From NCBI RefSeq assembly GCF_036500425.1, contig NZ_DASYCB010000077.1, forward strand, positions 26,411 to 90,410: a stretch of DNA of 64,000 bases, written 5' to 3'. The position numbers were made by a program, and so were the translations under genes. The notes under the pieces were generated by a model. That model was not told where the DNA came from, searched no databases, and worked only from the letters and a program-made list of their open reading frames with translations. Shown here piece after piece: positions 23,076 through 56,130 of this stretch. The stretch is from Luteibacter sp. Lineage in GTDB: Bacteria; Pseudomonadota; Gammaproteobacteria; Xanthomonadales; Rhodanobacteraceae. How positions within the stretch are numbered: position 1 is the stretch's first letter; every line of letters starts with the position of its first letter.

Positions 23076-23187
<112 letters not shown>

Positions 23188-40954: not shown

Positions 40955-41833
40955 CTAAGGTATAGACCCGTGCCCAGACACCACTGCCTCTTTTTCAGTG
41001 ATTGCTTCTGCAAGCGCCATGTTGAGCGTCAACCGATTCATGGCGTAGTGAACGGCACGATGACAATTAGGGCATATTGCAGCAACGTTTCCTGGGGCAT
41101 CAGGGCCGTCGTCGGCAAGACGATGAAGATGGTGGACTTCTAGGTAGGGGAGCCCGCCGTCACAGGTAAACGGCGCGGGGTTTTGGCAAAGTTCGCAAAT
41201 CCCACATGCGCGCAGTAACGCATATTGGCGTACTTCAGTGCTGCGTTTCCTGTACTCCGCCAATCCCATGCGTACTGCTGGGACCCTTTGGTCTTGCATG
41301 TTTAGCCGATGCTGCAATTCGGGGAGGCTGGCCTGGGTCACCTGTGTTGCAATCTCCCGGATCGCCTCCAGAGATGTGTGTTCCTCCACGCGTACGAAAT
41401 GAAATCTCAGCAGGTGATTGCCTTTGCGAGGCCCGGAGTCAGGGATGGCCGTTTCTACGGCTGCAACACTGTACGATCCTTGGAACTTAAATCGCTTTCC
41501 ATAACCACCTTGTGCTGCGATCTCCTTTGCAGTGGATTCCCGGGTTGTAAACAGAAGGACTGACCTGCTGCCCGAAGCTAATCTCGAGTTGGCTGCGTTC
41601 GAGGGGCTTTGGTCGCCACTTCCCCCTTGCCCAAAATAGAGCCAGCTACCGTCGCTTAGGGGTTCATCAAAGTAGCCTGCTTTCTTCCCGTGCCTACCGC
41701 CGGATGTGCAAATGACACATCCTGGTTCCAGCGGACCCCAGATTACGCCGGACTGAGCTTGCTTGCTTCCGACGAAATCGAGTAGGGCTTGACGGTGATA
41801 CTCCTTGCCGACAACAAAATGGTGAGAATCCAT
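40955..41833 (-). CDS. Modification-dependent (type IV-like) HNH endonuclease with N-terminal SRA/YDG-like domain
   Basis: ATG 41833 with AAGGAG 6 nt upstream. N-domain pattern VGKEYHRQALLDFVGSKQAQSGVIWGP...ICTSGG...WLYFGQGGSGDQ...AANSRLA resembles SRA (Y.G.GG..DQ...N..L). C-terminal HNH: CELC...EVHHLHRLADDG...NVAAICPNCHRAVH. Confidence 0.75.
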   Translation of the reverse strand: MDSHHFVVGKEYHRQALLDFVGSKQAQSGVIWGPLEPGCVICTSGGRHGKKAGYFDEPLSDGSWLYFGQGGSGDQSPSNAANSRLASGSRSVLLFTTRESTAKEIAAQGGYGKRFKFQGSYSVAAVETAIPDSGPRKGNHLLRFHFVRVEEHTSLEAIREIATQVTQASLPELQHRLNMQDQRVPAVRMGLAEYRKRSTEVRQYALLRACGICELCQNPAPFTCDGGLPYLEVHHLHRLADDGPDAPGNVAAICPNCHRAVHYAMNRLTLNMALAEAITEKEAVVSGHGSIP

Positions 41834-41887
41834 TTCCGACTCCTTGTTCAAACCCTTGCAGCAGTAAAATCCGCGCGCACAGGCCTG

Positions 41888-42334
41888 CTATGGACGATTG
41901 CCTTTGCTAATTGGCGATGCTTTGACTTGGATCGCAATCTTCTCTCCGACCTGTATGGCCTTTGTGGGCGTGGAGAGCTCGCATTCCCAGGCGACAAGGA
42001 CCCTCCAGCCTTGTTCCTCCAGTTGTGCTGCCACGCGTGCATCCCTCGCCACGTTCTTCTCGAACTTCTCCACCCAGAAGGCGGTGTTGCTCTTCGGCGT
42101 CGTGGCGATGCTGCATCCCGGATGCCGATGCCAGAAGCAGCCGTGGACGAATACGACCGCCTGATAGCGGGGGAACACGAGGTCCGGCTTGCCAGGGAGC
42201 ACCGTGCCATGAAGCCGGTAGCGGAGTCCCAGGCGGTGTAGCACCTTGCGGAGTGCGAGTTCGGGTCGGGTGTCCTTGCCCCGGATCCGGGACATCCGCT
42301 CTGAGCGCTCGCTAGGGGAGAGGAAGTCGACCAT
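41888..42334 (-). CDS. vsr: Very short patch repair endonuclease
   Basis: 148 aa. RSERMSRIRGKDTRPELALRKVLHRLGLRYRLH...PGKPDLVFPRYQAVVFVHGCFWHRH. Confidence 0.93.
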   Translation of the reverse strand: MVDFLSPSERSERMSRIRGKDTRPELALRKVLHRLGLRYRLHGTVLPGKPDLVFPRYQAVVFVHGCFWHRHPGCSIATTPKSNTAFWVEKFEKNVARDARVAAQLEEQGWRVLVAWECELSTPTKAIQVGEKIAIQVKASPISKGNRP

Positions 42335-42343
42335 GCAGCATCC

Positions 42344-45300
42344 CTAGGTTTCCCGGGGCCGGTCCCTTTCCAGCTCGTAGAACGGGAGGCCCCGGATCAC
42401 CTCTCCAGCGACACCCGATGTCTTGTAGAGGCAATGGTGGTTGGGCAAGGTCTTCACCCGCTCGGACAGGTCCCCAAGGTCCGACGTGAAGCCGAGGGCC
42501 CCCAGCTCCGCCGGGGTAACGTTGGGTACCTTGTGGATGAACCAGGTCAGCAACGGATCCCGGTAGTCGGTCGTGCTTGTCTTGAAGTGCCTCAGGTATT
42601 GCGAGGCCAGGACTACGCCGGTGCCGAACTCCCGTCCCTGCAGGAGTAGCTTGCGCAGTACGTCGAACTCGTAGCGCATGATGTTGTCGGCCTCGTCGAC
42701 TAGCAGGTACGAGTCGACCACCCGCAGTTGCGGGTCAGTGCCAAGGAAGGGGCGCTTGGGTGTCCTTAGCATGTTCTCGTAGAACATGTTTAGCATGATG
42801 GCAACCAGCATGTTCTTGCTTCGGTCATCCTGGCCCATCGCGTCAAGCGACACGACGACGATGCCATCGAGGAATTCGTCGAACGGCTTGGTCTTGGCAG
42901 GGTCCTTCTCGAATACCTCCATGTCCACGAGGTCGTCGATGATCGCCATCGGCGAATCGGACTTCCCACCCAGTAGCTCGCGGTACTCCGTATGGATGTC
43001 GTAGATGGTGGGTTGGCGCCCTTGCGTCGCGCACGCAACGTACGCATTCCGGACTGCTCCCTTGAGCTTGTCGCGCTGCACGGGACCGATGCCGGAATAC
43101 ACCTTGTCGAGGACGTCGGCGAAGAAACGGAACCTATCCAGCCAGGGAACCATGGATTCGCCCATCGACGAGGTATCGAATAGGTTGAGAGGCAGGTGTG
43201 CGGGCTTGACTACGCGTGCCCCGGTCGCCTCGACGAATTCGGGGCTGCTGTAGTCGCGCTTGTAGTCGAATACCAGGAACCTTGGCTTGATGCCGCGATT
43301 CTCCCGCCTTGCCGTGGCGACCTGGAATATGAGCGACTTCAGCAGCTGCGTCTTGCCGGTGCCAAGGTCGCCCACGACGCCAATGTTGAGGTGGTTGAGC
43401 CGCGTGTCCGATATATTCAGGGCGAGCGGGCGAGGCTCGAAGCCATCCACGGTCCTGCCGATGGACAGCACGATACCCGTGCTGTCCTCGCCGACCGGTG
43501 CAATCGTCGCTGCAGGCTCCGCGGGCAGGGGATGCTGGCCTCGAACGACGGGCTCCGACGCAATGTCCGCCATGCCGGGCACTGCCGAGGGCGCCCCGCC
43601 GCTCCCCTCGCTTCCCGGCGTGGCCCCGGGTGTGGATGGTTGGTATGGTTGGTCGGGCGTCGCGTCACTGCGAAGAGTGCCAGCGGCGGCGGGAGGAGGA
43701 GGCAATAGTCGCCATTCGCCGACCTTGGCGCGCACGACATCGTAGAGTCCTTGGGCATCGCCACCCACGATACGCCCGGCATCCTTGGGGGAGATGGATA
43801 TGCTCTCGTGAAAGCCGTCCCCATCGTGGTCATGCGCATCGCTTAGCGGGGATCCATCCACTACTACGAGCCGGCCATGGTCGTCTATGGTGATCTCGGG
43901 GGCAGGCCCCAGTATCGCGGCGGCGATGCGCTCGTGGTAGCCGGCCCAGCGTCCGGCCTGCTCCTTGACGAGCTCGTGCTGGCTATAGACGCGCAACCCG
44001 AACCCAACCATCGACAACAAGAGGTGCTGGTACGCGAGCTTCCAGGCCAGGGACTTGGTGGCACGTTCTTCCATCGCCTTGAGCAGCGAGGAGAGTGCCC
44101 TGGCCTGGCCAAGTGCGTCCTTGGCATCGTTCTGGCTGAGCGTGCTGCCTTGTTGCCGGCATTTCACCTCGATCGGGGTGAGGTGGATGCGAGTCGAGCC
44201 CTCGCTGACGCGGAAGCCGACGACTAGGAGGTCCGGACGCGAGAGCGACGTATCCTTGCGCTCCTTGCCGAGCGACCGGGCCAGGTCCGCAAGGTAGCCG
44301 CGGAAGGGATCGACGGGGATGATGATCGCGATGGATGCATCGCCTGGCGAACCGGACAGCACGGGGAGGATGCTGTCCAGGTTGCCGGATGTACGGAACT
44401 GGTCCTGCAGGAGCCGGACTGCGAGGAACAGGCCAAGGTCGCCGGTAGCACCGGAATCATCGCCGGAGAGGCCGCGTATCGTCGGGATGCCCCGCCGCGC
44501 TACTTCGAGCAGGACTTGCTCGATCTGGCCGTCGCCTAGCTCGCCGCAACCTGGCAGGGGGCGAAGGACTCTCCCCAGGGCATCGCGGTCGGCATCCCTT
44601 ACCTGGGATAGCAGGTAGTAGCCGCTGGTATCGCCAGCCCGGTGGGAGTAGGACGGCAAGTCGTAGTCCCATAGGTACGTGCCCCTAATCCATCCTCCCA
44701 GAAAGCAAGCTGGGTCGATGGCGGAGGATGACACCGCGACGAAGCCAGCCTTCTTATCCTCGAGCATGCTGGCGACGGCATGGACGTTGGGCGCGAACTG
44801 GAGCCCAGTCGCGTCGTCGTGCCCGCCTTCCAGAGCGCTGATACAGTGGGCCACCTTGTCCGCGAACATCTCGCCCGATGGAGCCACGGGTAGGGCTTGT
44901 CGCGACTCGCTGAGGAAGGCCCCGTGCAGTTGGCGCCTGATCCTATGCCGGATCAGGCCTCCAGTCCCCAATGGGGAACGCATGCCAACTGCAGCGGACT
45001 CGGGTTGTGCCGCGTCTAGCTGGGCAATGATGCCTAGGTCCGGCTTGGTCCCCGGCGGTTGCTTGTCGAACCAGCGGACATGGTTGCCGGTGTCCTCGGA
45101 CAGGTTCGCGATCGTGGCCTGGTCTGGACGCGACTCGGCAGGCCTGGTATCGAAGACCTCAAGTATTCTCGGGCCTACGCCTTGCCTAGGTGAAGGAGCC
45201 TCGCGATTGCCAAACCGCCTGGTGCACCAGGTCGCCAGTCCTTCGTTGCAGGCATCGGTAGCACCGCCGCCACTGGATACCACGAGGCTGACGATAGGCT

Positions 45301-47890
45301 TGGCGGCCAGAAGGTCTGAGACATCCCCGAGCGCACGTGCGACCTGAGCAGGGCTGAAGCCACTCGATATGCCTCCTACGACCAGCCCGAAGGTATTGTC
45401 GAATGGCGGTTGCCGCGACTTGTCGGCAATCTGGCCGAGGCGCGACCCGTTCCACAGCACCGACCAGTAGTCGGAATTGCACTCGACGGACAGGAAGGGG
45501 ACCGGGTCGACACCGGTCGGTCCCCCGGGGGACTGCAGGCACATGACTAGCAGGTCGGGTACGCAGTCGGGATCGAGGATACTGGCCGCAGGACAGGGTA
45601 GCGGGTCATCGCCCTCCACCGCGTCATATAGCACCCCTTGTGCGAGGCAATGCCAGGCCAGGCGCAACGGATGCAATGGGGAAAGCATGATCGCGTCGGG
45701 CACGCGTGCAAGCGTGCGGCCATCGGCTTCCCTCGGGCATACGGCGACGACGTCCACCCAGCAAGCGATATCGCGGTCGGCGGCGAGCCACGCGGTGTAC
45801 GTATCGAGGTATTTCTCCACCAAGGTGCGGAAGCCAGGGTCTCGTGCAAGCCACTTGCCGAGTGGGGCGGACTCGAGGAGGCCTGCGTGGTCGCTGGTCT
45901 CCCTTACCCGGCGGGCGATCTCCTGCCGCGCATCCACGAACCCAGGCGGGGGCACGAACAACGCGGCCTCGGGCCTCGGGTCGTGGAGGAAGCGCGCCTG
46001 TGAAAGGATCGGTCCGGCAGGCGCCTCCCAGTCCGGCGACGTCCACTTGGTCGCGTAGTCATCGGAGAGCACCAAGGGGATGAAGGACCTGCCCGCGTTC
46101 TGCTCCTCGAGCATCCATGCCTGCAGGCTGGATGAACGGGCATGGCGGTCAAGCTGCACGACGGCCTTGGTGTCGAACTTCTCAAGGTGGCGACGGTTGA
46201 GCTTGATGAGGCGCTCGAACTCGCTCCTGCATCCTTCCTCCTTGGCTTCCTCGCAGGTGACATAGACCCTGCAGGTCTCCGCGCCGCGGCCTGGCATCTG
46301 GAAGGAGACATCAAGTTGGTAGTTGCCGTCGGCTTCTATCTCTACCTGGTAGCTCCCGTCCTTGGCCGGGTGTAGCTGGAGTGGTTGCCTGGCCTCCGTG
46401 GCTTGCTCGGTCGCGTCGTCGGGTACCCCCTCTACTTGCGTGATGGCGACACCGGGCGACACGAGGAGGAGGAGCTCGTAGCGACCCGAGCCGGGAACCG
46501 AGAGCGCCGCTTCCCAATCGGCCCGGGCATTACCCTTGCGTGGCTTCTTCGGCAGCGACAGCTTGGTTGCCATCCGGGAGGTGACGACAATGCCTGGAAG
46601 CCAGCTCGCAAGCGAGATGACCCTAGCCGTGGCGCTCTTCCGCCCGATGGCGGTGATCTTGTAGCTAGCCGGGGAGCGTTGCCCGCTCGAGGGCAGCTTA
46701 TCCTGATGCGATACCGTTCCCTTGACCTGAATCGATACGGCGGTCTTGCCGTGCGATCCGCCCGTGAGGGACACCTCCACGGGGCCATCTTCCCCCGTTG
46801 GGCCGACGGACATGGAAAGCTCGACCCCCGAGCGCACGATCGCCGGCATTCCGCGGGTAACCGGGAGGATGGCGTTTGCGCAGGCGATCGAGAGGTCGCC
46901 GGCTGGCCCGTCGGGCTCCTCCGCGAGAAGTTCGGCCCAGCACTCGCTCGTCAAGGTCGACCACCATGAGGGTGGCGGCTCGAGCTCGAGGGTATCCGAT
47001 GGTAGGTAGAAGGCGGGCGCAGCGCGGTCGAAGGCCGTTGGCACGTCGCAATTCGCCTGCACGTGCGCCAGGAAGGCAGGGAGCGCCTGCTTGGACGGCT
47101 CGGTCGTGGCCACGGCTGCCAGCCGGTCGATGCTGGTCTTGAAGCCATCGGCCATCTCGTCCGCGACCTTTTCCAGGATGCCAAGCTGCGTCCTGGCGAC
47201 AACGCCGCCGTCCTGCAGGGGCGGCAGGCCGCAGGCGAGCGCCACGGCCGAACCTGGTGGCAATCCCCGTGCATCGTCGCGGATCGAGTAGATGCGCGAC
47301 AACAACCGCCACGTACCCCCACTAGGAGCTACCTCGTCGACTGCTGCTGCCGCTCGCCCGACGAGCAGCCTTGCATCGTCGAGCGAGTCCTCGCCGATGC
47401 CAGCGTCCGTGAGCCCCTGAGTGACCAGCTGCTGGATGAAACCGTCTTCCCACCATGCCTCGAACGTCGCGTGGCCGGTATTGTTGGAGGCGTTCATGCC
47501 GAACTCCTCCGTCGTCGACGCCACCGACCTGTTGCTGTGCTGCCCCGGCGGCATGAGCGCCACGAAGCTGGCCATGTTGGGATCGTTGCGGATGTGCAGG
47601 AGGTGGCTTTCGTCGCACTTGCCGGATACGCCGATGCCCGGGTTGCGACCGGCAGCGTGGCCAGGCGGGAGCTGTAGCAATACGGGCAGGACGGCCCCGG
47701 TGCTACCTGGGCCGTGCACCACGCTTATCCCACCAGGAGTGGCAAGTTCGTCGAAGACCTTCTCGAGGATCTCCAGCGGCGGCCCGTGGAAGACGAAGCG
47801 GGACTCGTGCTGGTCGCCCCCTTGCTCGCGTGCCGCGCCCTGGACCTTGTCGCGGACGATGCGGGCGAGGGTATTTATGAGTCTATTCAT
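42344..47890 (-). CDS. Giant (1848 aa) defence-type protein: large unassigned N-terminal region, PD-x18-ExK nuclease-like motif, C-terminal HerA/FtsK-like P-loop ATPase (DptH-like by architecture, unverified)
   Basis: Walker A VGDLGTGKTQ (DNA ~43346-43372). Walker B YLLVDEADN (42683-42706). RPDLLVVGF...LTPIEVKCR (44162-44236). ATGA overlap with the upstream gene at 47887-47890. Confidence 0.85.
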   Translation of the reverse strand: MNRLINTLARIVRDKVQGAAREQGGDQHESRFVFHGPPLEILEKVFDELATPGGISVVHGPGSTGAVLPVLLQLPPGHAAGRNPGIGVSGKCDESHLLHIRNDPNMASFVALMPPGQHSNRSVASTTEEFGMNASNNTGHATFEAWWEDGFIQQLVTQGLTDAGIGEDSLDDARLLVGRAAAAVDEVAPSGGTWRLLSRIYSIRDDARGLPPGSAVALACGLPPLQDGGVVARTQLGILEKVADEMADGFKTSIDRLAAVATTEPSKQALPAFLAHVQANCDVPTAFDRAAPAFYLPSDTLELEPPPSWWSTLTSECWAELLAEEPDGPAGDLSIACANAILPVTRGMPAIVRSGVELSMSVGPTGEDGPVEVSLTGGSHGKTAVSIQVKGTVSHQDKLPSSGQRSPASYKITAIGRKSATARVISLASWLPGIVVTSRMATKLSLPKKPRKGNARADWEAALSVPGSGRYELLLLVSPGVAITQVEGVPDDATEQATEARQPLQLHPAKDGSYQVEIEADGNYQLDVSFQMPGRGAETCRVYVTCEEAKEEGCRSEFERLIKLNRRHLEKFDTKAVVQLDRHARSSSLQAWMLEEQNAGRSFIPLVLSDDYATKWTSPDWEAPAGPILSQARFLHDPRPEAALFVPPPGFVDARQEIARRVRETSDHAGLLESAPLGKWLARDPGFRTLVEKYLDTYTAWLAADRDIACWVDVVAVCPREADGRTLARVPDAIMLSPLHPLRLAWHCLAQGVLYDAVEGDDPLPCPAASILDPDCVPDLLVMCLQSPGGPTGVDPVPFLSVECNSDYWSVLWNGSRLGQIADKSRQPPFDNTFGLVVGGISSGFSPAQVARALGDVSDLLAAKPIVSLVVSSGGGATDACNEGLATWCTRRFGNREAPSPRQGVGPRILEVFDTRPAESRPDQATIANLSEDTGNHVRWFDKQPPGTKPDLGIIAQLDAAQPESAAVGMRSPLGTGGLIRHRIRRQLHGAFLSESRQALPVAPSGEMFADKVAHCISALEGGHDDATGLQFAPNVHAVASMLEDKKAGFVAVSSSAIDPACFLGGWIRGTYLWDYDLPSYSHRAGDTSGYYLLSQVRDADRDALGRVLRPLPGCGELGDGQIEQVLLEVARRGIPTIRGLSGDDSGATGDLGLFLAVRLLQDQFRTSGNLDSILPVLSGSPGDASIAIIIPVDPFRGYLADLARSLGKERKDTSLSRPDLLVVGFRVSEGSTRIHLTPIEVKCRQQGSTLSQNDAKDALGQARALSSLLKAMEERATKSLAWKLAYQHLLLSMVGFGLRVYSQHELVKEQAGRWAGYHERIAAAILGPAPEITIDDHGRLVVVDGSPLSDAHDHDGDGFHESISISPKDAGRIVGGDAQGLYDVVRAKVGEWRLLPPPPAAAGTLRSDATPDQPYQPSTPGATPGSEGSGGAPSAVPGMADIASEPVVRGQHPLPAEPAATIAPVGEDSTGIVLSIGRTVDGFEPRPLALNISDTRLNHLNIGVVGDLGTGKTQLLKSLIFQVATARRENRGIKPRFLVFDYKRDYSSPEFVEATGARVVKPAHLPLNLFDTSSMGESMVPWLDRFRFFADVLDKVYSGIGPVQRDKLKGAVRNAYVACATQGRQPTIYDIHTEYRELLGGKSDSPMAIIDDLVDMEVFEKDPAKTKPFDEFLDGIVVVSLDAMGQDDRSKNMLVAIMLNMFYENMLRTPKRPFLGTDPQLRVVDSYLLVDEADNIMRYEFDVLRKLLLQGREFGTGVVLASQYLRHFKTSTTDYRDPLLTWFIHKVPNVTPAELGALGFTSDLGDLSERVKTLPNHHCLYKTSGVAGEVIRGLPFYELERDRPRET

Positions 47891-49419
47891 TCTTCCTTGT
47901 CCGTGGCCAGGTTGGCTGGGAAGGGCGGCAACAGCAGCATCCCGCTCTCGGCATCCGGGCTGTCTAGCACCAGGCCAAGCATCCTGAGCTGGTGGCCGAG
48001 GTCGTTCCGTGCAATGTCTTGCCGGTCCACGACGATCCCGTAGGAAGCCAGATGCTGGCCTAGCCTATGGATCGAGCGAGGTCCGCCCATGCCAGACAGG
48101 GCACAGTGGACGAGCGCGAGCACGGCGACTGGCCCCAGGGACACGACCCAAGGGCTGGAAGGGCTGTTGCCCTTCTTCTTGAGTACATAGCCTTGGTCGT
48201 ATCCCCTGAGCAACTGGATGGCGGTTTGGCGCTGGCCCAGGGCGTGCCGTGCGAACTCGAGCAGGTTGGCGCCTATGCCTTTCCTGCAGTTCAGCGCTCG
48301 GGCCTCCTGTTCCCGGATGTCCGCGAGCGCCGCCAGGATCCCGGCCTCCGCCAGCGCTTGCCGGTTGTCACGGATGTGCTGGCAAAGGCTGGCGATGCCC
48401 TCGCTCGAGGAAATGTCCCCGGGATAGGGGACGCTTGCATCCGACAGCGACCATAGGAGTGCATTTATCCCCAGGCGTGCCGACAAGTAGCTGGATGCCT
48501 TGTCCTTCAATCCATGCAGGGCCTTGCCGCCATAGGTCATGTACTGGGCCTTGTCCGGGAAGGCTGCCGCCCGCGTGGCATCGGTCCCGATGGGCCCACC
48601 GCCGGCGAGGGCCTCCGACAGGGATCGCCAGGTCCGTGCCTGTACGTCGCACAGCCATGTCACGTGGGCCACGGCGGCAAGCCGGAGGACTGCCTCCAGC
48701 AGGCTCGTCCATTGCCTGCGGGTCATGGCTTGCTTGGCCTGGATAAGCGCGTGCAGGTCCCTGACGAATTGCCTGGCAGGCATGAACCGGACGTTGTCGA
48801 AGTCATCGTTCGAGAGATTGGCAACCTCCGACTTGGGTACCGGTGCGAGTTGCCAGGGCGTGTGGTTCCCCCACGCAGCGGTTTCTTGCTCGAGCCAACG
48901 GGCGAAGACGTCGTCCTGCCCATCGACGCCCAGTGCAGCGAAGAGGTCTTCCCACAGGGCTTGTGCAGCCTCGTGGTCCCGGGAGCCAAGCCAGACCATG
49001 CGACGCACGAAGCTACCGGCAGGCCACGAGTTGCTGCTCAGCCGGGCCGAGCCGGAAAAGTGTGCCAGGGACGGGATCAGCGGTGTTACCTGAAGGAATC
49101 GCTTGGCGGATTGGTTGGGTAGCTTCGGGCTCTCGAGTACCCCGTGCAGGACAGCGTTCCAGTCCTCCACGCCTAGCGTTGTGCCATCCGGCGGGCGTTG
49201 TCGCTTGTCCCGCCGCTTTTGTAGCCTTTGCTCGAGGTCGCGACCGGCTTGCGGGACGCTACCTTCGCTGACGGACTCGAATCCGATGATGCGGTAGAGC
49301 GATGCCACCAGTACCTCGGAGCTTGCGTATTCCGGCGCCGGGCTTATGGCGAGCGAGGAATCCTTGTACACCCGATGGGAGTTCTTCCAGGGTGCCTGCC
49401 TGTATTCGGCCAACGTCAT
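47887..49419 (-). CDS. 510-aa protein of unknown function, middle gene of the Dcm-linked operon (DptG-like by position only)
   Basis: Long uninterrupted ORF, translationally coupled on both sides (ATGA at 49416-49419 and 47887-47890). No motif recognised by eye. Confidence 0.8.
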   Translation of the reverse strand: MTLAEYRQAPWKNSHRVYKDSSLAISPAPEYASSEVLVASLYRIIGFESVSEGSVPQAGRDLEQRLQKRRDKRQRPPDGTTLGVEDWNAVLHGVLESPKLPNQSAKRFLQVTPLIPSLAHFSGSARLSSNSWPAGSFVRRMVWLGSRDHEAAQALWEDLFAALGVDGQDDVFARWLEQETAAWGNHTPWQLAPVPKSEVANLSNDDFDNVRFMPARQFVRDLHALIQAKQAMTRRQWTSLLEAVLRLAAVAHVTWLCDVQARTWRSLSEALAGGGPIGTDATRAAAFPDKAQYMTYGGKALHGLKDKASSYLSARLGINALLWSLSDASVPYPGDISSSEGIASLCQHIRDNRQALAEAGILAALADIREQEARALNCRKGIGANLLEFARHALGQRQTAIQLLRGYDQGYVLKKKGNSPSSPWVVSLGPVAVLALVHCALSGMGGPRSIHRLGQHLASYGIVVDRQDIARNDLGHQLRMLGLVLDSPDAESGMLLLPPFPANLATDKEE

Positions 49420-51548
49420 GGTTGCTTCCCTCCCTCGATCGAGACGAAGCTGCCGTCCCAGGAACTCCCGACCTCGGTGCCATCCGCGCCTATCCTGATC
49501 CTTGCGTCCATGAGCACGTCGGGATCCCTCACGATCGGGCCGGACAACCTAGCCTTGGTCGTATCAAGCAAGGCGACGACGGTACGGGGTAGCGACGCCG
49601 GGGACAGCCCGCGCTCCAGTTCCTTGACGGCCTTGAACAGCTCGTATGTCAGGGCAATGGGCTGCAGGGATTGGCCGCTTCCCACCTCGAGGAAGCAGAT
49701 GGGGGATCGTGGCCGCCCAGCCGTAGGAAGGCGGCGCATCCTGACCTGACGGACTGGTACGACGAGGATTGTCTGCCTCTGTTGCGGCGGGAGTGGTTGC
49801 CCGAACGTGGTCGTGAGGGATACCTCGAAGTCCTGGCCATTGTTCAACAGGTTCTTTACCTGCTTGGCCACCTCGAAGAGCCGCTGGCCCTTGTCGTCGT
49901 CCTCGGCTACTTGCTGGAAGGCCTCCAATATCTGGACGTCCGCCACGACGGCGGAGCGTGTGCAGGCACTGCGCCGGACCAGCCGGCAGGCGAAGTCGCG
50001 GAGGACCCGCTGGAGGCGACTGGCCGCGGCGGGATTCCCCCGGCGGGTAGCAGGCGAGGAAAGCAAGTCGTCCGCCTTGGCCAGCTTGCGTAGCAAGTCG
50101 AGCTCGACCTTCGCCAGCACTTGGTACTTGCGGACGAAGTCGATGCCTCCCGTGATGGACCGGCTGAACCTCGTGTCCAGCTCGCCCAGTAGCACCTTGC
50201 TCCGCCCGCTGACCGCTACCTCGATGTCCGGGCTGGCCATGGCTGGGTCCAAGAGGTCCACCAGGCTTTCCAGCAGCGACGCGATCGTCGCAGGCAGGTA
50301 CGAGTCCTTGCGTTCCTGGAGGAAGTGCTGGAGTCCGAGCAGGACGCGTGCCTCGCTCGTCTCTTTGCCAAGCCCGAGGTCCTTGATGCCCTGTCGCAAC
50401 GTGCTGGCGGCTTCCGGGTCCCAGCGGTGGAAAAGCGCGTGTTGGTAGCTGGACATCGCGAGGTGGAACGGGGCGCTCAACTGCTGTCGTCGCGGATTGC
50501 TGGCCTGCTCCCCTGCCTTGTCCTGCGCTACCAGGTACGCGGCCCACTGGCATGGATCGCCTTGCTGGTCCTGCCCGGATGACTGGTTGCCCGCTAGCAA
50601 GTAGGAGACTAGGGAGAACAGGTCCCGGAAGCTCCAGCGCTTGCCACTGGCCAGCTCGTACCAGCGAAGGATTCGTAGCAATGCCGCACGGTTTTCCTCG
50701 CGGGCCAGCAGGGCCTGGCTATGGCAGAAGGGACAGTCATCGCCGGCGGGACATTCGCCTGGGCCGGGCCAATGCACGGGGCTCGTGGCGTACGCCAGGA
50801 GGGTAGAGGCAGGGCAGGGTTGCCCATCGCCTGGGCTTACCAGCAACGACTCGGCGTCCATGGGCCAGACGGCGATTTCCGGGAACCCGTCGAGCGGCCA
50901 GCATGAGGGGGCCGTGGATGAAAGACTGACGGCCCGGGTAATCGCCTCGAGCAAGTCGCGTGCTGGGCCAAGGCCGTGGTCTAGCGCATGGATCAACGCG
51001 TCGTCGAGGACACCACGGTTGACGCAGCAGAGGTAGTAGCGCTCACCGGGGCCGCCCAGCAGTGCAAGCAGTTCCTCGACCAGTAGCTCGGGGGCCGTGC
51101 GTCCTTCCTGTCCGGCCGTGGCGGACGCGTCCTGCACGATGGACAGTTCCATCGGTCGTGGCACGGAGGCAAGGCTACCCGCGTCGACATCGACGACTCT
51201 GGCGACGGCTTGTCCAGCAGGTGGGTGGAACGAGACGGACAACGTCTCCAGCAGCCTGCCCCCGGCCGCCAGCCCCTGATCCAGACAGTTGATGGTGTGC
51301 TCGATTGCCTCGGTCTTACCGTTCCCGGGGCCGCCGACAAGCAGCAGTATCCGGGGCGTGCCGGGGTTCCCGGAGGCTACTTCCCCGGCCCAGGACTCGA
51401 GCCGCGAGATCAGGTGGGTCCGCAGCAACTCCTTGCCAGGCCGGCCGCTGCCGGGGTCGAATAGGCGCTTGACCCCGCCGGAGTGGTGTCCTGCCCATCC
51501 AAGGAGGTCCTTTGGGAACCTGGGGCTTGGCCCCGGCACGTTTTCCAT
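49416..51548 (-). CDS. 710-aa P-loop NTPase with Cys cluster (DptF-like by architecture, unverified)
   Basis: Strong purine-rich RBS upstream of ATG 51548. Walker A LLLVGGPGNGKTEA (DNA ~51309-51335). ECPAGDDCPFCH cysteine cluster. Long helical C-terminal part. Confidence 0.85.
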   Translation of the reverse strand: MENVPGPSPRFPKDLLGWAGHHSGGVKRLFDPGSGRPGKELLRTHLISRLESWAGEVASGNPGTPRILLLVGGPGNGKTEAIEHTINCLDQGLAAGGRLLETLSVSFHPPAGQAVARVVDVDAGSLASVPRPMELSIVQDASATAGQEGRTAPELLVEELLALLGGPGERYYLCCVNRGVLDDALIHALDHGLGPARDLLEAITRAVSLSSTAPSCWPLDGFPEIAVWPMDAESLLVSPGDGQPCPASTLLAYATSPVHWPGPGECPAGDDCPFCHSQALLAREENRAALLRILRWYELASGKRWSFRDLFSLVSYLLAGNQSSGQDQQGDPCQWAAYLVAQDKAGEQASNPRRQQLSAPFHLAMSSYQHALFHRWDPEAASTLRQGIKDLGLGKETSEARVLLGLQHFLQERKDSYLPATIASLLESLVDLLDPAMASPDIEVAVSGRSKVLLGELDTRFSRSITGGIDFVRKYQVLAKVELDLLRKLAKADDLLSSPATRRGNPAAASRLQRVLRDFACRLVRRSACTRSAVVADVQILEAFQQVAEDDDKGQRLFEVAKQVKNLLNNGQDFEVSLTTTFGQPLPPQQRQTILVVPVRQVRMRRLPTAGRPRSPICFLEVGSGQSLQPIALTYELFKAVKELERGLSPASLPRTVVALLDTTKARLSGPIVRDPDVLMDARIRIGADGTEVGSSWDGSFVSIEGGKQP

Positions 51549-51573
51549 GATCTTCCCCTTCTTCCTTCGTCCT

Positions 51574-52917
51574 TCACAATGCCATGGCGGCTACGGGCTC
51601 TGGCCGGTTGGCCTTGCTGGCTTGCGCATGCCGTCTGGACACCTGCTCATCCAGTTCTTCGAGGACGGACGTGACGGCAAGGCCGATGGCCTCGGCGAGC
51701 AGGGGCGGGACTGCATTGCCTACCTGCGTATACCGCGGGCATTCCTTAGTGCGTAGCTTGCCGCCGGTCGTGAACTTGCCCCGGAAGCGGAACCAGTCCG
51801 GGAAGCCCTGTAGACGGGCGCTCTCCCTCACGGTGAGGATCCTGGGTTCCGAGTAGTGCAGGACATCGTCCGGCAAGGTCGTGATCGTAGGCGCCGGTTC
51901 CCAAGGTGACATTACATAGATCCGGTGCTTCTTAAGGCCGAACCTTGCGCGGTTCTTCTCGTTCATCGTGACACCTTGCGTGCATTCCTTGATGATCTTC
52001 TTGAAGCGTGCCCGGACATCGTCCCTGTGCCGGGCCAGGCGCATGCTGTCCATGGAGTCGGTGCGGCAATGCTTGTGCATCAACCGCTGGTAGTTGGTTA
52101 GTGGCCCAAGGTAGTAGGCTTCCTCGAACCCCCCTCGCGAGAAGGGGTCGGTACAAGGCTGGGTGGACGTTTGGTGGACCAGGAGGTCCGATATCGCATC
52201 CTCCGCGGAGACTGGCTTGGTCTTGGGCAGGCCATGCCTGGAAAGCATCTCGACTCGCATGGACTCGAGCGCCTCGAAGGCATGCATGACACCGCCCTCT
52301 AGCTGGGAGGCCAAGTGCTTCTGGACGCCGATGACGATCAGCCGCGAGCGGCGCTGGGGTACGCCGAAGCGGGACGCGTCAACGATCTCGCCATGGACCT
52401 CGTAGCCGATGGCCTCGAGGCTTTTCTTGAGCTTGTCGTAATACGATTCGGCTGCTTGCCCGCATGCTCCTTCTTCCCCTTGCTTGCTGGAGTGCGCGAC
52501 CTTCATTCCCGGCACGTTCTCGAGTACCAGGATGGATGGCCTAATGGTGTCTACGACCTGGACGTATCTCTCGAAGAGCTGGTTGCGTGGATCGTCCTCT
52601 CGTCGCCGACCGGCGAAGCTAAATCCCTGGCATGGAGGGCCTCCAGCAAGGACTTGGATCCCGCCTTTCAACCTGGCGAGGTCGCCATGGTGCTTGTCCA
52701 GCAGGTCATCGATGCCCCAAGCCCGTTTCTCCAGCCAGGATGGCCAGTCGAACTTATCGACGGGAACCTTGCGATCGCCGAGGAGGTTGCCGGAGAACGT
52801 ATCGAATGCCATGGGATCCCGCTCCACGGCGAACCTCCCCTGAAGCCCGGCCATGGAGAGGCCCAGCGAAAGGCCACCACAGCCTGAGAAGAGATCTACG
52901 AATTTGTACTTGGACAT
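51574..52917 (-). CDS. dcm: DNA (cytosine-5)-methyltransferase
   Basis: Motif I FVDLFSGCGG, IV GGPPCQGFSFAG, VI LVLENVPG, VIII QRRSRLIVIG, X GNAVPPLL. Start set at ATG 52917 (MSKYKF); upstream in-frame starts at 52935 and 53073 are possible. Confidence 0.93.
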   Translation of the reverse strand: MSKYKFVDLFSGCGGLSLGLSMAGLQGRFAVERDPMAFDTFSGNLLGDRKVPVDKFDWPSWLEKRAWGIDDLLDKHHGDLARLKGGIQVLAGGPPCQGFSFAGRRREDDPRNQLFERYVQVVDTIRPSILVLENVPGMKVAHSSKQGEEGACGQAAESYYDKLKKSLEAIGYEVHGEIVDASRFGVPQRRSRLIVIGVQKHLASQLEGGVMHAFEALESMRVEMLSRHGLPKTKPVSAEDAISDLLVHQTSTQPCTDPFSRGGFEEAYYLGPLTNYQRLMHKHCRTDSMDSMRLARHRDDVRARFKKIIKECTQGVTMNEKNRARFGLKKHRIYVMSPWEPAPTITTLPDDVLHYSEPRILTVRESARLQGFPDWFRFRGKFTTGGKLRTKECPRYTQVGNAVPPLLAEAIGLAVTSVLEELDEQVSRRHAQASKANRPEPVAAMAL

Positions 52918-53133
52918 GTTCTGGGCTGTTTCCATGGCTTCTGGTCGCATAACGCGTTCGGGCAGGACGCAGTCGTCACGCTGCCGCCCCGGGGCGTGGC
53001 CAGGGTCGGGGGTGTCTCGACGTGACTGGCGCATCGATCTCGCTGCGCCGGTGCCGTGGATATGCGCGTTCAATTGGGCACCCCTGCCGGGTGCCCTGGG
53101 CAGTCACCCGGGAGTGCCTTGGTTCCCATGGGA

Positions 53134-53730
53134 TCAGTCACGTGCGGACTCTCTTCCGATTGCCTGTGCCATCCAGGATGGGAACATCGCGCGCGTGGCA
53201 GTCAGTGCACGCCACTCGGGCGCTGGCAAGGAACGTCGTAGTGCTACCAGTGCCTTGCCGGCATGTGCCGGCCCCATCCAGGCCAGGGCTCTAACCGCGG
53301 CGCCTGCTGGGCTGCTACCTAGCGCCAGCATCCAATGGGGTGCGTGCTTCATGAGTACTTCCGCGCGCCCCAGTTTCAATTTTCTGGTGCGCCCGGAGGT
53401 CAGGTAGACTGACCTTGCGGGCACCTGCCTCGTCAACCCAAGGAGGTTGGCTGCATTGGCTCCATGCGGCGTGACCATCTCGCCGTTTTGCTCGGCCATC
53501 GCCTTGATGACCTTATCGGGAGCGGGCGCGCGCGTACCATGCTGGCCAGCAACAGGGGCAACGTATGTACCTCGTGCTACACGTAGTAGCTCGCCTTCCT
53601 TCGCGAGACGAGAGAAGGCCTGGTCGACTGCCGCCCGGCTTCCAAGGTGGAGGAATTCCTTGGGCGAAAGTATGCCTCCCTCCGCAAGGGACTGCGCATG
53701 CAACAGGATCGACTCTGGCAACGTTTTCAT
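53134..53730 (-). CDS. AbiEi-like / DUF6088-type putative transcriptional regulator (no AbiEii partner present)
   Basis: 198 aa. LSPKEFLHLGSRAAVDQAFSRLAKEGELLRVARGTYVAP matches the N-terminal winged-helix pattern of AbiEi-type antitoxins as I recall it. First gene of the minus-strand string. Confidence 0.6.
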   Translation of the reverse strand: MKTLPESILLHAQSLAEGGILSPKEFLHLGSRAAVDQAFSRLAKEGELLRVARGTYVAPVAGQHGTRAPAPDKVIKAMAEQNGEMVTPHGANAANLLGLTRQVPARSVYLTSGRTRKLKLGRAEVLMKHAPHWMLALGSSPAGAAVRALAWMGPAHAGKALVALRRSLPAPEWRALTATRAMFPSWMAQAIGRESARD

Positions 53731-53924
53731 GTCGGCTTCTCGCGATGTAAGAATCTTACGCTAGTTTCTGACATTCATGTGCTTGGACCTTCCAGGCACC
53801 GTATCTGTAGGCTTGTCCATAACGACTTGGCGGGCGAAGCCTGCGCCTTTGCTTTCTCACGCGATGCGACTTGGCCCAATTGGCATGCGCGGCACGAACA
53901 GCCGGTACGCCGCGTTGTACTCAC

Positions 53925-54064
53925 GCCAATAGCGCGGGATGTCCTCGGACCTTCCTGTGGCGTCGCTCGAAGACATGTATGGTGGTAAGCCGGTCGCGGC
54001 GATGGACCGCCACCTGTCTCACCGCTTCGATCTTGAACTCGTCCGTATATCGTTTGCCAGTCAT
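53925..54064 (-). pseudogene. IS3-family transposase orfA remnant (first ~20 residues conserved, then degenerate)
   Basis: My own translation from ATG 54064 (GGAGG RBS at 54070-54076) gives MTGKRYTDEFKIEAVRQV, then scrambled sequence and a stop at ~53922. Another frame downstream shows a faint orfB-C-terminus-like YWREYN. Confidence 0.6.
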
Positions 54065-54290
54065 AACGACCTCCTCGGTTACCAGAAATTATGGCTCCAA
54101 GGTGTCTACGAAAGTCTGGGCGGTCCATATCTCGTGTTGGGGCTCACCATCTATGCAGCTCGCTTGCGCAGTTCGCGGAGCGTTTTGAAGAGACGACTGG
54201 GACGTTCAGACCTCTCTTCTTCCGGGCTCTCACCGATTTAGATTGCAATACTCACCCGCTGCATCCATAAGACTTCGCAGGACACTGGCA

Positions 54291-55988: not shown

Positions 55989-56130
<142 letters not shown>

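What the first reader, a model, noticed from the sequence alone, without database searches (positions are those of the whole stretch)
42344..53073. Dcm-linked three-gene operon resembling DptFGH/SspFGH restriction modules but keyed to C5-methylation instead of phosphorothioation
Four co-directional minus-strand genes are tightly coupled: ATGA start/stop overlaps at 49416-49419 and 47887-47890, and only 25 nt separate the methylase from the next gene. The genes are: (i) a C5-cytosine methyltransferase with all canonical motifs; (ii) a 710-aa protein with one N-terminal Walker A (GGPGNGKT) and a CPxxxxCPFC cluster; (iii) a 510-aa protein with no motif I can recognise; (iv) a 1848-aa protein whose last ~350 aa are a HerA/FtsK/VirB4-like P-loop ATPase, preceded by a PD-x18-EVK motif. 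The size series, the order (P-loop protein, mid-size unknown, giant protein with C-terminal ATPase) and the coupling resemble DptF-DptG-DptH (DndFGH) and SspFGH. Those modules are partnered with phosphorothioate-modification genes (dndABCDE / sspABCD). None is present in this window, and the partner here is a Dcm-type methylase plus Vsr. A methylation-keyed FGH-like restriction module is a pairing I am not aware of having been characterised.
Basis: partly seen in the sequence, partly recalled or inferred. Interest (0 to 1): 0.9.

Follow-up and report, generated by a model that had tools for sequence, protein, structure and literature searches.

The report
Cytosine-methylation-coupled DndFGH-like restriction cassette
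A tightly packed five-gene cassette pairs a cytosine-5 DNA methylase and a Vsr repair nuclease with three proteins, two of them distant relatives of the phosphorothioate-linked DndFGH/SspFGH restriction machines; it recurs in many bacterial species and no paper I could search names it.

Summary
Five co-directional minus-strand genes (C5-methylase, 710-aa P-loop protein, 510-aa protein, 1848-aa giant, Vsr) are separated by 25 nt, two ATGA overlaps and 9 nt.

The giant is a divergent DndH homologue over much of its length. It has a DptH-type HerA/FtsK ATPase (E 7e-68), a D…EVK nuclease core that aligns with DptH, and two beta-sandwich domains. The 710-aa protein is a remote SspF/DndF relative: 36 of 60 divergent family members hit SspF profiles. 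The 510-aa protein is not DptG-like. It is a mostly alpha-helical protein with no sequence-family or fold match.

In 71 species-level genomic loci with a complete trio, 70 have a C5-methylase within 3 kb and 56 have Vsr. The methylase sits in several arrangements, and unrelated C5-methylases replaced it at least twice. A deep metagenomic branch keeps the methylase too. No dnd genes were found near any cassette.

All catalytic residues are invariant in 72 cassettes. The best reading is a methylation-protected, ATP-driven translocase-nuclease restriction system carried on mobile elements, here a 33-kb integrative element at tRNA-Pro. I found no name for it in the searchable literature. There is no experimental evidence for function.

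The parts
51574..53073 (-). C5-cytosine DNA methyltransferase, the modification component. The Pfam domain covers residues 56-466 and the catalytic Pro-Cys is at 147-148. The true start is probably downstream of the TTG at 53073.
   Evidence: PF00145 1.5e-55, TIGR00675 1e-44, PADLOC MTase_II 2.5e-79. Motifs. P147, C148, E185, N186 and V187 are invariant in 72/72 cassettes.
49416..51548 (-). F-like P-loop protein (710 aa), a remote SspF/DndF relative. Walker A is at residues 72-79 (window 51312-51335). The Cys cluster C266/C272/C275 (window 50724-50753) is a likely Zn-binding insert.
   Evidence: PADLOC SspF 0.0026 for the window protein. 36/60 divergent family members hit SspF, best 2.2e-10. 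hhalign against a DptF profile gives 42-130~41-134 (E 0.0023) and 618-674~453-508 (E 0.053), collinear, with a reversed control at E 0.64. K78, D140 and the three Cys are invariant in 72/72.
47887..49419 (-). Middle 510-aa protein of an uncharacterised family. Residues 1-395 are predicted confidently and are almost entirely alpha-helical. Residues 397-510 are highly conserved in sequence but poorly modelled.
   Evidence: More than 1000 homologue clusters, all named 'hypothetical'. No Pfam or PADLOC hit in 18 members down to 33% identity. AF2 pLDDT 75.7. No Foldseek hit in PDB (best E 0.63) or BFVD (best E 0.069). hhalign against DptG E 0.73. Always found between F and H.
42344..47890 (-). H-like giant protein (1848 aa), a divergent DndH homologue and the predicted nuclease-translocase effector.
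   Evidence: PADLOC DndH 7e-68. BLASTP against real DptH: 31% identity over 1401-1840, E 5e-48. Collinear N-terminal matches to a DptH profile. AF2 model of residues 141-1340, pLDDT 81.
46250..46894 (-). H residues ~333-547: two tandem beta-sandwich (Ig-like) domains.
   Evidence: Strand-rich block at residues 193-407 of the AF2 model of H 141-1340. Foldseek top hits are tandem Ig/filamin/FnIII pairs, E down to 2e-5. hhalign 353-434 ~ DptH 298-368, E 0.0026. DndH is reported to contain two beta-sandwich domains at the equivalent position (PMC10853773).
44078..44236 (-). H residues 1219-1271: PD-(D/E)xK restriction-endonuclease core (P1219, D1220 ... E1241, V1242, K1243).
   Evidence: Aligns with the DptH nuclease core 1091-1133 at 42% identity, sharing a D-x-L-x-V-G-F ... 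P-x-E-V-K ... Q-A signature. All five residues are invariant in 72/72 cassettes and in 104 close orthologues.
42371..43420 (-). H residues 1491-1840: HerA/FtsK-type P-loop ATPase (Walker A 1507-1514, Walker B 1731-1735), the predicted DNA translocase.
   Evidence: PDB 7es4 (DptH C-terminal domain) 5.8e-49, or 3.3e-61 with a family profile. K1513, D1732 and E1733 are invariant in 72/72.
41888..42334 (-). Vsr very-short-patch repair endonuclease, 9 nt downstream of H. Frequent accessory gene of the cassette.
   Evidence: TIGR00632 2.2e-44, PF03852 6.3e-29. Present in 56/71 complete species-level loci and really absent from the fetched flanks of the rest. Absent from the deep branch, 0/18.

Best explanation
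This is a methylation-based restriction-modification cassette whose restriction part is an FGH-type machine.

Inferred from homology and linkage:
- The C5-methyltransferase marks a sequence motif on the host's own DNA.
- The three downstream proteins form an ATP-dependent complex. H supplies a PD-(D/E)xK nuclease and a HerA/FtsK DNA translocase. F supplies a nucleotide-binding P-loop module with a Zn-binding insert. The middle protein is a new, mostly alpha-helical subunit.
- By analogy with DndFGH, which is reported to form a 2:2:1 complex that binds, translocates and nicks DNA lacking the modification, this complex damages incoming DNA that lacks the 5mC mark, while methylated host DNA is spared.
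- Vsr removes the T:G mismatches that arise when 5mC deaminates, which offsets the mutational cost of keeping the genome methylated.

The cassette travels on mobile elements and sits in defence islands.

Shown here: gene order and coupling, homology of H and F, strict conservation of every catalytic residue, and near-obligate linkage to a C5-methylase across phyla.

Not shown: complex formation, the protective role of 5mC, and which subunit reads the mark.
For: 1. Tight operon: 25-nt gap, two ATGA overlaps, 9-nt gap.

2. H is a divergent DndH. DndH profiles hit at 7e-68 and 7es4 at 5.8e-49. Three collinear N-terminal matches to a DptH profile include a 42%-identical D...EVK...QA nuclease core, with a reversed control at E 0.84. 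Tandem beta-sandwiches occupy the position reported for DndH.

3. F belongs to the SspF/DndF superfamily. 36/60 divergent members hit SspF, best 2.2e-10. Matches to DptF are collinear at the Walker A region and a C-terminal motif. Some relatives carry N-terminal HNH fusions, the kind of variable N-terminal domain fusion reported for DndF.

4. Linkage to the methylase. 70 of 71 species-level loci with complete F-G-H have a C5-MTase within 3 kb. Positions are upstream co-directional (64 loci, one of which also has a downstream copy), downstream convergent (4) or downstream co-directional (2, counting the extra copy). The order differs again in Aeromonas and Pseudoalteromonas. In 5 of 72 cassettes the usual methylase is replaced by one of two unrelated PF00145 lineages. 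In 80 metagenomic loci, including a deep branch with F ~30% identical, no locus with both flanks covered lacks a methylase.

5. Catalytic residues of the methylase, the H nuclease, the H ATPase and the F P-loop are invariant in 72/72 cassettes spanning 31-85% identity.

6. No DndB/C/D/E homologue was found in the window or in the 96 loci held at that point. Ten other large window ORFs gave no dnd or ssp hit.

7. Defence context. The P. aeruginosa copies lie in a locus flanked by MerR and a Bac_DNA_binding gene (inferred to be ihfA), matching the published flank of core defense hotspot 1, next to SymE, MazG-like and SLFN-helicase genes. The Aeromonas copies lie next to GmrSD. In the window the neighbours are an AbiEi-like gene and a PIN gene.

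8. Mechanistic precedent: DndFGH forms a 2:2:1 complex with DNA binding, translocation and nicking (PMC10470545). SspFGH is toxic without its cognate modification (PMC8092258).
Against: - There are no experimental data of any kind.
- The middle protein has no recognisable DNA-binding or modification-reading domain, and it is not DptG-like.
- The TRD, inactive-methylase and inactive-SF2 domains reported for DndH could not be confirmed or excluded in H. Foldseek output was dominated by beta-sandwich hits, and the PDB profile search found only the ATPase.
- Co-variation between the methylase target-recognition region and F/G/H was weak: maximum partial r 0.33, at H 121-270. Nothing therefore shows that the trio reads the same motif as the methylase.
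- Replacement by unrelated C5-methylases is awkward for a strictly sequence-matched R-M pair.
- One complete locus, L092, has no methylase within 10 kb.
- Rakesh et al. argue that canonical DndFGH often works as a standalone system, decoupled from its modification genes (PMC10853773).
Confidence: 0.7

Rival explanations
1. F-G-H is a standalone 'HerA/FtsK capture' counter-invader system that needs no self-mark. The methylase and Vsr are a separate orphan module that travels with it, for example to protect the mobile element from other hosts' restriction or to regulate genes.
For: Rakesh et al. conclude that canonical DndFGH is commonly decoupled from DndABCDE (PMC10853773). L013 has a solitary dptFGH. 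L092 has F-G-H without a methylase. Methylase phylogeny is only loosely congruent with the H ATPase, rho ~0.4.
Against: A C5-methylase lies within 3 kb in 70/71 loci, with translational-coupling distances. The linkage survives rearrangement and replacement by unrelated C5-methylases, which points to selection for having a C5-methylase next to F-G-H. Only C5-type methylases were found as the flanking partner, whereas a chance passenger would be expected to vary in type.
Confidence: 0.15
2. The cassette acts mainly as an addiction or stabilisation module for the mobile element that carries it. Loss of the element dilutes methylation and F-G-H then kills the cell. Phage defence is secondary.
For: In the window it sits on a 33-kb integrative element with an integrase, a relaxase and a coupling protein. 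It occurs on plasmids. Unrestrained SspFGH is toxic without its modification.
Against: This does not exclude the main explanation and uses the same molecular mechanism. Chromosomal copies in the P. aeruginosa defence hotspot and next to other defence genes fit an anti-invader role.
Confidence: 0.1
3. F-G-H still depends on phosphorothioate or another modification made by genes elsewhere in the genome, and the methylase is incidental.
For: H orthologues are annotated as DptH by one source. The whole genome of the window's organism could not be searched.
Against: No DndB/C/D/E homologue was found in the window or within 10 kb of the cassette in the 96 loci held at that point. No dnd/ssp hit among ten other large window ORFs. 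No NCBIfam DptF/G/H hit. The conserved neighbour is always a C5-methylase, whereas the canonical dptFGH loci L097 and L099 have dndBCDE adjacent.
Confidence: 0.03

Closest known systems
DndFGH / DptFGH (phosphorothioate-linked restriction module of Salmonella and E. coli B7A)
   Same: Three-gene order: P-loop protein, mid-size protein, giant protein. H shares the C-terminal HerA/FtsK ATPase (31% identity, 7es4 5.8e-49), the D...EVK...QA nuclease core, an 'SP(L/F)HPL' motif and tandem beta-sandwiches in the same order. F shares the Walker A region and a C-terminal motif weakly.
   Different: The partner is a C5-methylase (often with Vsr), not dndABCDE. The middle protein is unrelated to the triple-wHTH DptG (7exx). 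No protein reaches an NCBIfam DptF/G/H model. F is ~170 aa longer than DptF. Outside the ATPase, H identity is too low for BLAST.
SspFGH (single-strand phosphorothioate-linked module, Vibrio anguillarum FF-93)
   Same: Same three-gene logic: F with a Walker A and H with an FtsK-like C-terminus. Divergent members of the window's F family hit SspF profiles (best 2.2e-10), and the window F hits SspF at 0.0026 over its Cys-cluster and lid region.
   Different: No hit of H to SspH profiles or of the middle protein to SspG profiles. The partner is a C5-methylase, not sspBCD. The H ATPase is closest to DndH-type profiles.
Classical Dcm-type methylase + Vsr pairs and Type II R-M systems with C5-methylases
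   Same: A canonical C5-methylase with all motifs and a Vsr repair endonuclease, implying standing 5mC on host DNA.
   Different: The predicted restriction partner is a ~3000-aa, three-protein, two-ATPase machine and not a small Type II endonuclease.
HerA/FtsK 'capture' systems (Rakesh, Aravind and Krishnan 2024) and MADS
   Same: They use a HerA/FtsK-class ATPase in a multi-gene defence locus. mad8 hits the H ATPase weakly (2e-10). MADS also discriminates self by methylation and occupies the same P. aeruginosa hotspot.
   Different: MADS has eight genes, an N6-adenine methylase and otherwise unrelated proteins. The described capture systems pair HerA/FtsK with Orc/Cdc6 or D5 helicases. None is described with the Dcm/Vsr + F + middle protein + H set.

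Membership tests
DndFGH/DptFGH | H: C-terminal HerA/FtsK ATPase homologous to DptH | tested here: met
   PADLOC DndH 7e-68. 7es4 5.8e-49. BLASTP against Massilia DptH 31% identity, 5e-48.
DndFGH/DptFGH | H: active PD-(D/E)xK nuclease upstream of the ATPase | tested here: met
   Residues 1219-1271 align with DptH 1091-1133 at 42% identity, hhalign E 0.011. P, D, E, V and K are invariant in 72/72.
DndFGH/DptFGH | H: two beta-sandwich domains in the N-terminal half | tested here: met
   AF2 model. Foldseek tandem Ig-like hits, E ~2e-5. hhalign 353-434~298-368, E 0.0026.
DndFGH/DptFGH | H: N-terminal inactive SF2 domain, TRD and inactive adenine methylase with nested TRD | tested here: inconclusive
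   The first 140 residues were not modelled. Foldseek output was saturated by beta-sandwich hits. The PDB profile search found only the ATPase. One collinear motif match at 685-757~589-658, E 0.53.
DndFGH/DptFGH | Match to curated DptF/DptG/DptH family models | tested here: not met
   No NCBIfam hit at E<=0.01 for any of the three proteins. No PADLOC DndF or DndG hit.
DndFGH/DptFGH | F: P-loop kinase with enlarged helical lid (+/- Zn insert) and a C-terminal alpha+beta domain | tested here: inconclusive
   The Walker A and Cys cluster are in the right order. hhalign against a DptF profile is weak but collinear, E 0.0023 and 0.053. No structure of F was predicted and no DptF structure is in the PDB.
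DndFGH/DptFGH | G: triple winged-helix DNA-binding protein (DptG, PDB 7exx) | tested here: not met
   hhalign E 0.32-0.73. The AF2 model is almost entirely alpha-helical for residues 1-395. The best Foldseek PDB hit has E 0.63, and 7exx and FokI are not among the 50 listed hits.
DndFGH/DptFGH | Genomic partner dndABCDE (phosphorothioation) | tested here: not met
   No DndB/C/D/E homologue in the window or in the 96 loci held at that point. The canonical loci L097 and L099 have them adjacent.
SspFGH | F homologous to SspF | tested here: inconclusive
   The window F hits SspF at only 0.0026. 36/60 divergent family members hit SspF, best 2.2e-10. This is remote superfamily-level homology, not membership.
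SspFGH | Middle and giant proteins homologous to SspG and SspH; partner sspBCD | tested here: not met
   No SspG hit in 18 diverse members at E<=0.1. No SspH hit for H at E<=0.01. No ssp hit in ten other window ORFs.
C5-cytosine methyltransferase (Dcm type) with Vsr | Ten-motif C5-MTase fold with catalytic Pro-Cys; Vsr endonuclease | tested here: met
   PF00145 1.5e-55, TIGR00675 1e-44, Vsr TIGR00632 2.2e-44. Motifs.
MADS | mad1-8 operon with an N6-adenine methylase; MAD6-8 mandatory | tested here: not met
   Only a weak mad8 hit to the H ATPase, 2e-10. The methylase here is C5-type. System description from bioRxiv 10.1101/2023.03.30.534895.
Restriction-modification system (functional definition) | Modification protects self DNA from the linked nuclease | not testable with these tools
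   Only gene linkage and analogy to DndFGH/SspFGH are available.

The most novel reading that the evidence does not exclude
This is an unnamed, widespread class of ATP-dependent restriction-modification systems in which a DndH/SspF-type translocase-nuclease machine has switched from phosphorothioate to 5-methylcytosine as its self-mark. The switch went with replacement of the winged-helix G subunit by a new, mostly alpha-helical protein that reads the methylation state of DNA or couples the complex to it.
Probability: 0.3. Interest if true: 0.85.

Novelty: new variant of a known kind. Interest (0 to 1): 0.72.

Why it matters
How FGH-type machines tell self from non-self is unresolved. Phosphorothioate marks are partial and hard to map, and comparative work has questioned whether DndFGH is coupled to modification at all. 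A natural version of the machine whose conserved partner is a C5-methylase would make that question directly testable, because 5mC can be mapped by standard methods and installed or removed with one gene.

The finding also gives a concrete example of the 'MTase substituents' that a 2018 review suggested for strains with solitary DndFGH.

It adds a candidate defence system to many genomes. At least 154 species-representative genomes matched, and one P. aeruginosa F variant was seen on about 480 contigs (indexed in 859 blocks of the collection). Current annotation calls the proteins 'hypothetical', 'ATP-binding protein' or, misleadingly, 'DptH'.

The middle protein is a conserved family with no known fold relative.

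Tried and rejected
- **MADS membership.** Rejected. Only the ATPase resembles mad8 weakly, and MADS uses an N6-methylase and eight genes.
- **DptG-likeness of the middle protein.** Tested by hhalign with single and multiple sequences, by C-terminal-only alignment against the DptG wHTH, and by AF2 plus Foldseek against PDB and BFVD. All negative.
- **SspG/DndG/Pfam scan of 18 diverse middle-protein homologues.** No hits.
- **Co-variation of the methylase target-recognition region with 60-residue windows of F, G and H.** The aim was to locate a specificity determinant. The signal was weak (maximum partial r 0.33 at H 121-270) and not interpretable.
- **HNH ORF downstream of vsr as a sixth component.** Rejected, because it recurs in only 5 of the 80 genome loci and at varying positions.
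- **PDB profile search for the central part of H.** It found only the ATPase. Foldseek on the 1200-residue model was dominated by Ig-like hits, so the TRD and methylase-like domains could not be assessed.
- **Context of F-family members closest to SspF.** Ten chosen members showed HNH or other fusions but no SspF hit. tblastn of a distant member against plasmids found only the same cassette. The metagenome scan showed that the deep branch is also methylase-linked.
- **Literature.** Seven full-text searches found no named methylase-coupled FGH system.
- **Methylase specificity.** It could not be predicted. The PDB relatives are generic C5-methylases.
Full report
**Observation.** Both ATGA overlaps and the 25-nt methylase-to-F gap are present. 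A Vsr gene (41888-42334) starts 9 nt after the giant gene, so the unit has five genes.

The motifs check out:
- The methylase has motifs I, IV (Pro147-Cys148), VI, VIII, IX and X.
- F has Walker A at 72-79 and CPAGDDCPFC at 266-275.
- H has PD1219-1220 ... E1241-V-K1243 (spacing x20, not x18), Walker A at 1507-1514 and Walker B VDEAD at 1731-1735.

Profile searches confirm the C5-methylase (PF00145 1.5e-55) and Vsr (TIGR00632 2.2e-44).

**The giant protein (H).** Its last ~350 residues hit seven PADLOC DndH profiles (best 7e-68) and the solved DptH C-terminal domain 7es4 (5.8e-49; 3.3e-61 with a family profile). BLASTP against a bona fide DptH from a Massilia plasmid gives 31% identity over 1401-1840. 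NCBIfam's curated models do not hit.

To ask whether only the ATPase is shared, I removed the ATPase from both sides and compared a 21-sequence profile of H residues 1-1400 with a four-sequence DptH profile. Three local matches appeared in strictly collinear order:
- 353-434 ~ 298-368, E 0.0026.
- 685-757 ~ 589-658, which contains SPLHPLRLAWH against SPFHPLNLSYH.
- 1219-1271 ~ 1091-1133, E 0.011, at 42% identity.

The third match is the nuclease core: PDLLVVGF...LTPIEVK...DALGQA against DDVLFVGF...LLPLEVK...KAVEQA. A reversed-sequence control gave E 0.84.

An AlphaFold2 model of residues 141-1340 (pLDDT 81, pTM 0.72) shows a helical region, then about 215 residues of beta-strand (full-length 333-547), then alpha/beta domains. 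Foldseek's significant hits are tandem Ig-like/filamin/FnIII pairs. This matches the two beta-sandwich domains that Rakesh et al. report at the equivalent place in DndH (PMC10853773).

H is therefore a divergent DndH homologue over much of its length. I could neither confirm nor exclude the TRD, inactive-methylase and inactive-SF2 domains.

**The 710-aa protein (F).** On its own it hits only SspF, weakly (E 0.0026, residues 250-326, which is the Cys-cluster region). An exhaustive profile search of 1.84 billion cluster representatives found 492 clusters at E<=1e-3. Some carry N-terminal extensions of roughly 100-360 residues.

Of 60 divergent full-length members (21-37% identical to the window protein), 36 hit the PADLOC SspF profile PDLC02793 (best 2.2e-10) and 16 hit a second SspF profile. 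Twelve carry an HNH domain. None hit DndF. Against a four-sequence DptF profile, hhalign gives two collinear matches: the Walker A region at E 0.0023 and a C-terminal motif at 618-674 ~ 453-508, E 0.053. The reversed control gave E 0.64.

The order Walker A, then Cys cluster, then C-terminal domain fits the published DndF plan, which is a P-loop kinase whose lid sometimes holds a Zn insert, followed by an alpha+beta domain. F is a remote member of the SspF/DndF superfamily and not a member of either family.

**The 510-aa protein.** It has more than 1000 homologue clusters, all unnamed. There is no Pfam or PADLOC hit, even across 18 members down to 33% identity. There is no PDB sequence hit. 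Profile comparison with DptG gives E 0.32-0.73.

The AF2 model (pLDDT 75.7) is confident and almost entirely alpha-helical for residues 1-395. It is poor for 397-510, although that stretch is among the most conserved parts of the sequence. Foldseek finds nothing significant in the PDB (best E 0.63) or in BFVD (best E 0.069). The PDB holds full-length DptG (7exx), and it does not appear among the listed hits. The protein is G-like only in size and position.

**Is the methylase a real partner?**
- In P. aeruginosa the order is the same as in the window: M-F-G-H-V.
- In Aeromonas caviae the methylase is convergent downstream of H and there is no Vsr.
- On a Pseudoalteromonas plasmid it is co-directional downstream of H.

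A scan of one genome per species returned 154 relatives, and 80 loci were kept. They come from alpha-, beta- and gammaproteobacteria, Phycisphaerae, Gemmatimonas, Verrucomicrobia, Acidobacteriaceae, Bacteroidota and Bdellovibrionota. Using HMMs I built for F, G, H, M and V, 71 loci had a complete trio. Of these, 70 had a C5-methylase within 3 kb and 56 had Vsr.

In 67 of 72 cassettes the methylases form one family. In the other five, two unrelated PF00145 lineages (~30% identity) take its place, and three of those five are convergent downstream. The single exception, L092, has a reverse transcriptase upstream and an HNH gene downstream, with no methylase remnant by tblastn.

A metagenome scan seeded from a deep branch (F ~30% identical to the window's) returned 80 more loci. 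Every locus with both flanks covered has a C5-methylase. The deep branch lacks Vsr (0 of 18), while the main branch has it in 12 of 21.

No DndB/C/D/E homologue occurs in the window or in the 96 loci held at that point. Ten other large window ORFs give no dnd or ssp hit. By contrast, the canonical dptFGH loci L097 and L099 have dndBCDE adjacent.

Catalytic residues of all four enzymes are invariant in 72/72 cassettes.

**Context.** A 107-nt direct repeat (23081-23187 and 55995-56101, 94% identical) overlaps the 3' end of tRNA-Pro (56054-56130). An integrase gene (23268-24302) lies just inside the left copy. Between the repeats are a TrwC relaxase, a TrwB/TraD coupling protein and the cassette. 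The cassette is therefore cargo of a ~33-kb integrative mobilisable or conjugative element.

In P. aeruginosa it lies beside a MerR gene and a Bac_DNA_binding gene that I infer to be ihfA. That is the flank of the published pheT-side defence hotspot (cDHS1), which also hosts MADS.

**Mechanism (inferred).** The methylase marks host DNA. F, the middle protein and H assemble into an ATP-driven complex that translocates along unmarked DNA and nicks or cuts it. This follows DndFGH, which is reported as a 2:2:1 complex with DNA binding, translocation and nicking (PMC10470545), and SspFGH, which is toxic without its cognate modification (PMC8092258). Vsr limits C-to-T mutation at methylated sites, an inference from the established role of Vsr.

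Which subunit senses 5mC is unknown. Co-variation with the methylase's variable region was too weak to locate it. Whether the machine needs a specific motif or only 5mC is left open by the methylase replacements.

**Comparison and novelty.** The system works like DndFGH/SspFGH with a different self-mark, but it fails the membership tests for both families: no curated-model hits, an unrelated G subunit and no PT partner. It is not MADS.

Seven full-text searches found no description of a methylase-coupled FGH module.
- The 2024 reappraisal of Dnd systems reports cytosine methylases coupled to the DndD/CxC-DndE modification core, not to DndFGH. It contains no mention of Vsr, Dcm or SspFGH.
- A 2018 review only speculated about 'MTase substituents' for 82 strains with solitary DndFGH.

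The library covers open-access papers and bioRxiv only, and I could not run DefenseFinder, so a name elsewhere cannot be excluded. I rate this a new variant of a known kind.

Noticed in passing
window 23081-23187 and 55995-56101; tRNA-Pro 56054-56130 (-); integrase 23268-24302 (+); relaxase 32142-35120 (-); coupling protein 27985-29841 (-): A 107-nt direct repeat (94% identical) overlaps the 3' end of tRNA-Pro and brackets ~33 kb. That stretch holds an integrase, a TrwC relaxase, a TrwB/TraD coupling protein and the cassette, so it is an integrative mobilisable or conjugative element with recognisable att sites.
   Followed up: partly
window 40955-41851 (-): A 298-aa HNH protein lies directly downstream of vsr. 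It hits PADLOC 'Type IV methyl-directed restriction enzyme' profiles (1.5e-17). Homologues sit near the cassette in only five other loci (L018, L022, L034, L065, L092), at varying positions and strands.
   Followed up: partly
window 53134-53730 (-), 53775-54128 (-), 54243-55421 (+): An AbiEi-like antitoxin/DUF6088 gene (PADLOC AbiEi 1.4e-60), a 117-aa ORF with no hit, and a PIN_12-domain protein lie between the cassette and tRNA-Pro. They may be further defence or toxin-antitoxin cargo of the element.
   Followed up: no
window 1654-4128 (-): An 824-aa protein outside the 33-kb element hits the mad8 profile (6e-15) and PtuA weakly. It is an AAA/HerA-like ATPase of unknown role.
   Followed up: no
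L092 6611-8608 and 19105-20334: This is the only complete F-G-H locus without a methylase (a Verrucomicrobia single-cell genome). It has a reverse transcriptase (RVT_1, 5.9e-19) where the methylase normally sits and an HNH protein right after H.
   Followed up: partly
L014 7674-8168: In the Pseudoalteromonas plasmid variant, a separate 164-aa ORF between the middle gene and H matches the H-family profile (5e-13). The N-terminus of H may be split off as its own gene there.
   Followed up: no
L015 10111-13047 (Vibrio sp. dhg plasmid) and plasmid hits H7, H9, H12: A 979-aa DUF87 protein with a DptH-like ATPase (35% identity to the window's H ATPase) sits right after mobI on the Vibrio sp. dhg MOBH plasmid. 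Three other Vibrio plasmids gave similar hits, but I did not inspect their context. Only the ATPase is shared, and there are no F- or G-like genes next to it in L015.
   Followed up: no
L001-L006 1-7835 (P. aeruginosa): Upstream of the cassette in the P. aeruginosa hotspot are a 2098-aa protein kinase-DUF4011-AAA_11/12-MTES_1575 protein with a 449-aa partner, a SymE toxin, a MazG-like protein and an SLFN-like helicase. This is a dense defence island.
   Followed up: no
L006 13682-19177; L016 7239-13077; L076 and L091 F genes: Several cassettes are decayed. H is split by a frameshift in one P. aeruginosa genome. H is truncated by an IS21-family insertion on Sinorhizobium fredii plasmid p64a, with vsr retained. 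F is split in two other loci.
   Followed up: no
Proteins P0241, P0271, P0281 and others: One public source annotates orthologues of H as 'DNA phosphorothioation-dependent restriction protein DptH'. NCBI calls them 'ATP-binding protein', 'hypothetical protein' or 'type IV secretory system conjugative DNA transfer family protein'. The DptH label is misleading for genomes without dnd genes.
   Followed up: partly
P0488, P0496, P0499, P0508, P0483: Some distant F-family members carry N-terminal fusions: an HNH nuclease, or a domain matching the PADLOC candidate PDC-S36 (1.6e-23). This resembles the variable N-terminal effector fusions reported for DndF.
   Followed up: partly
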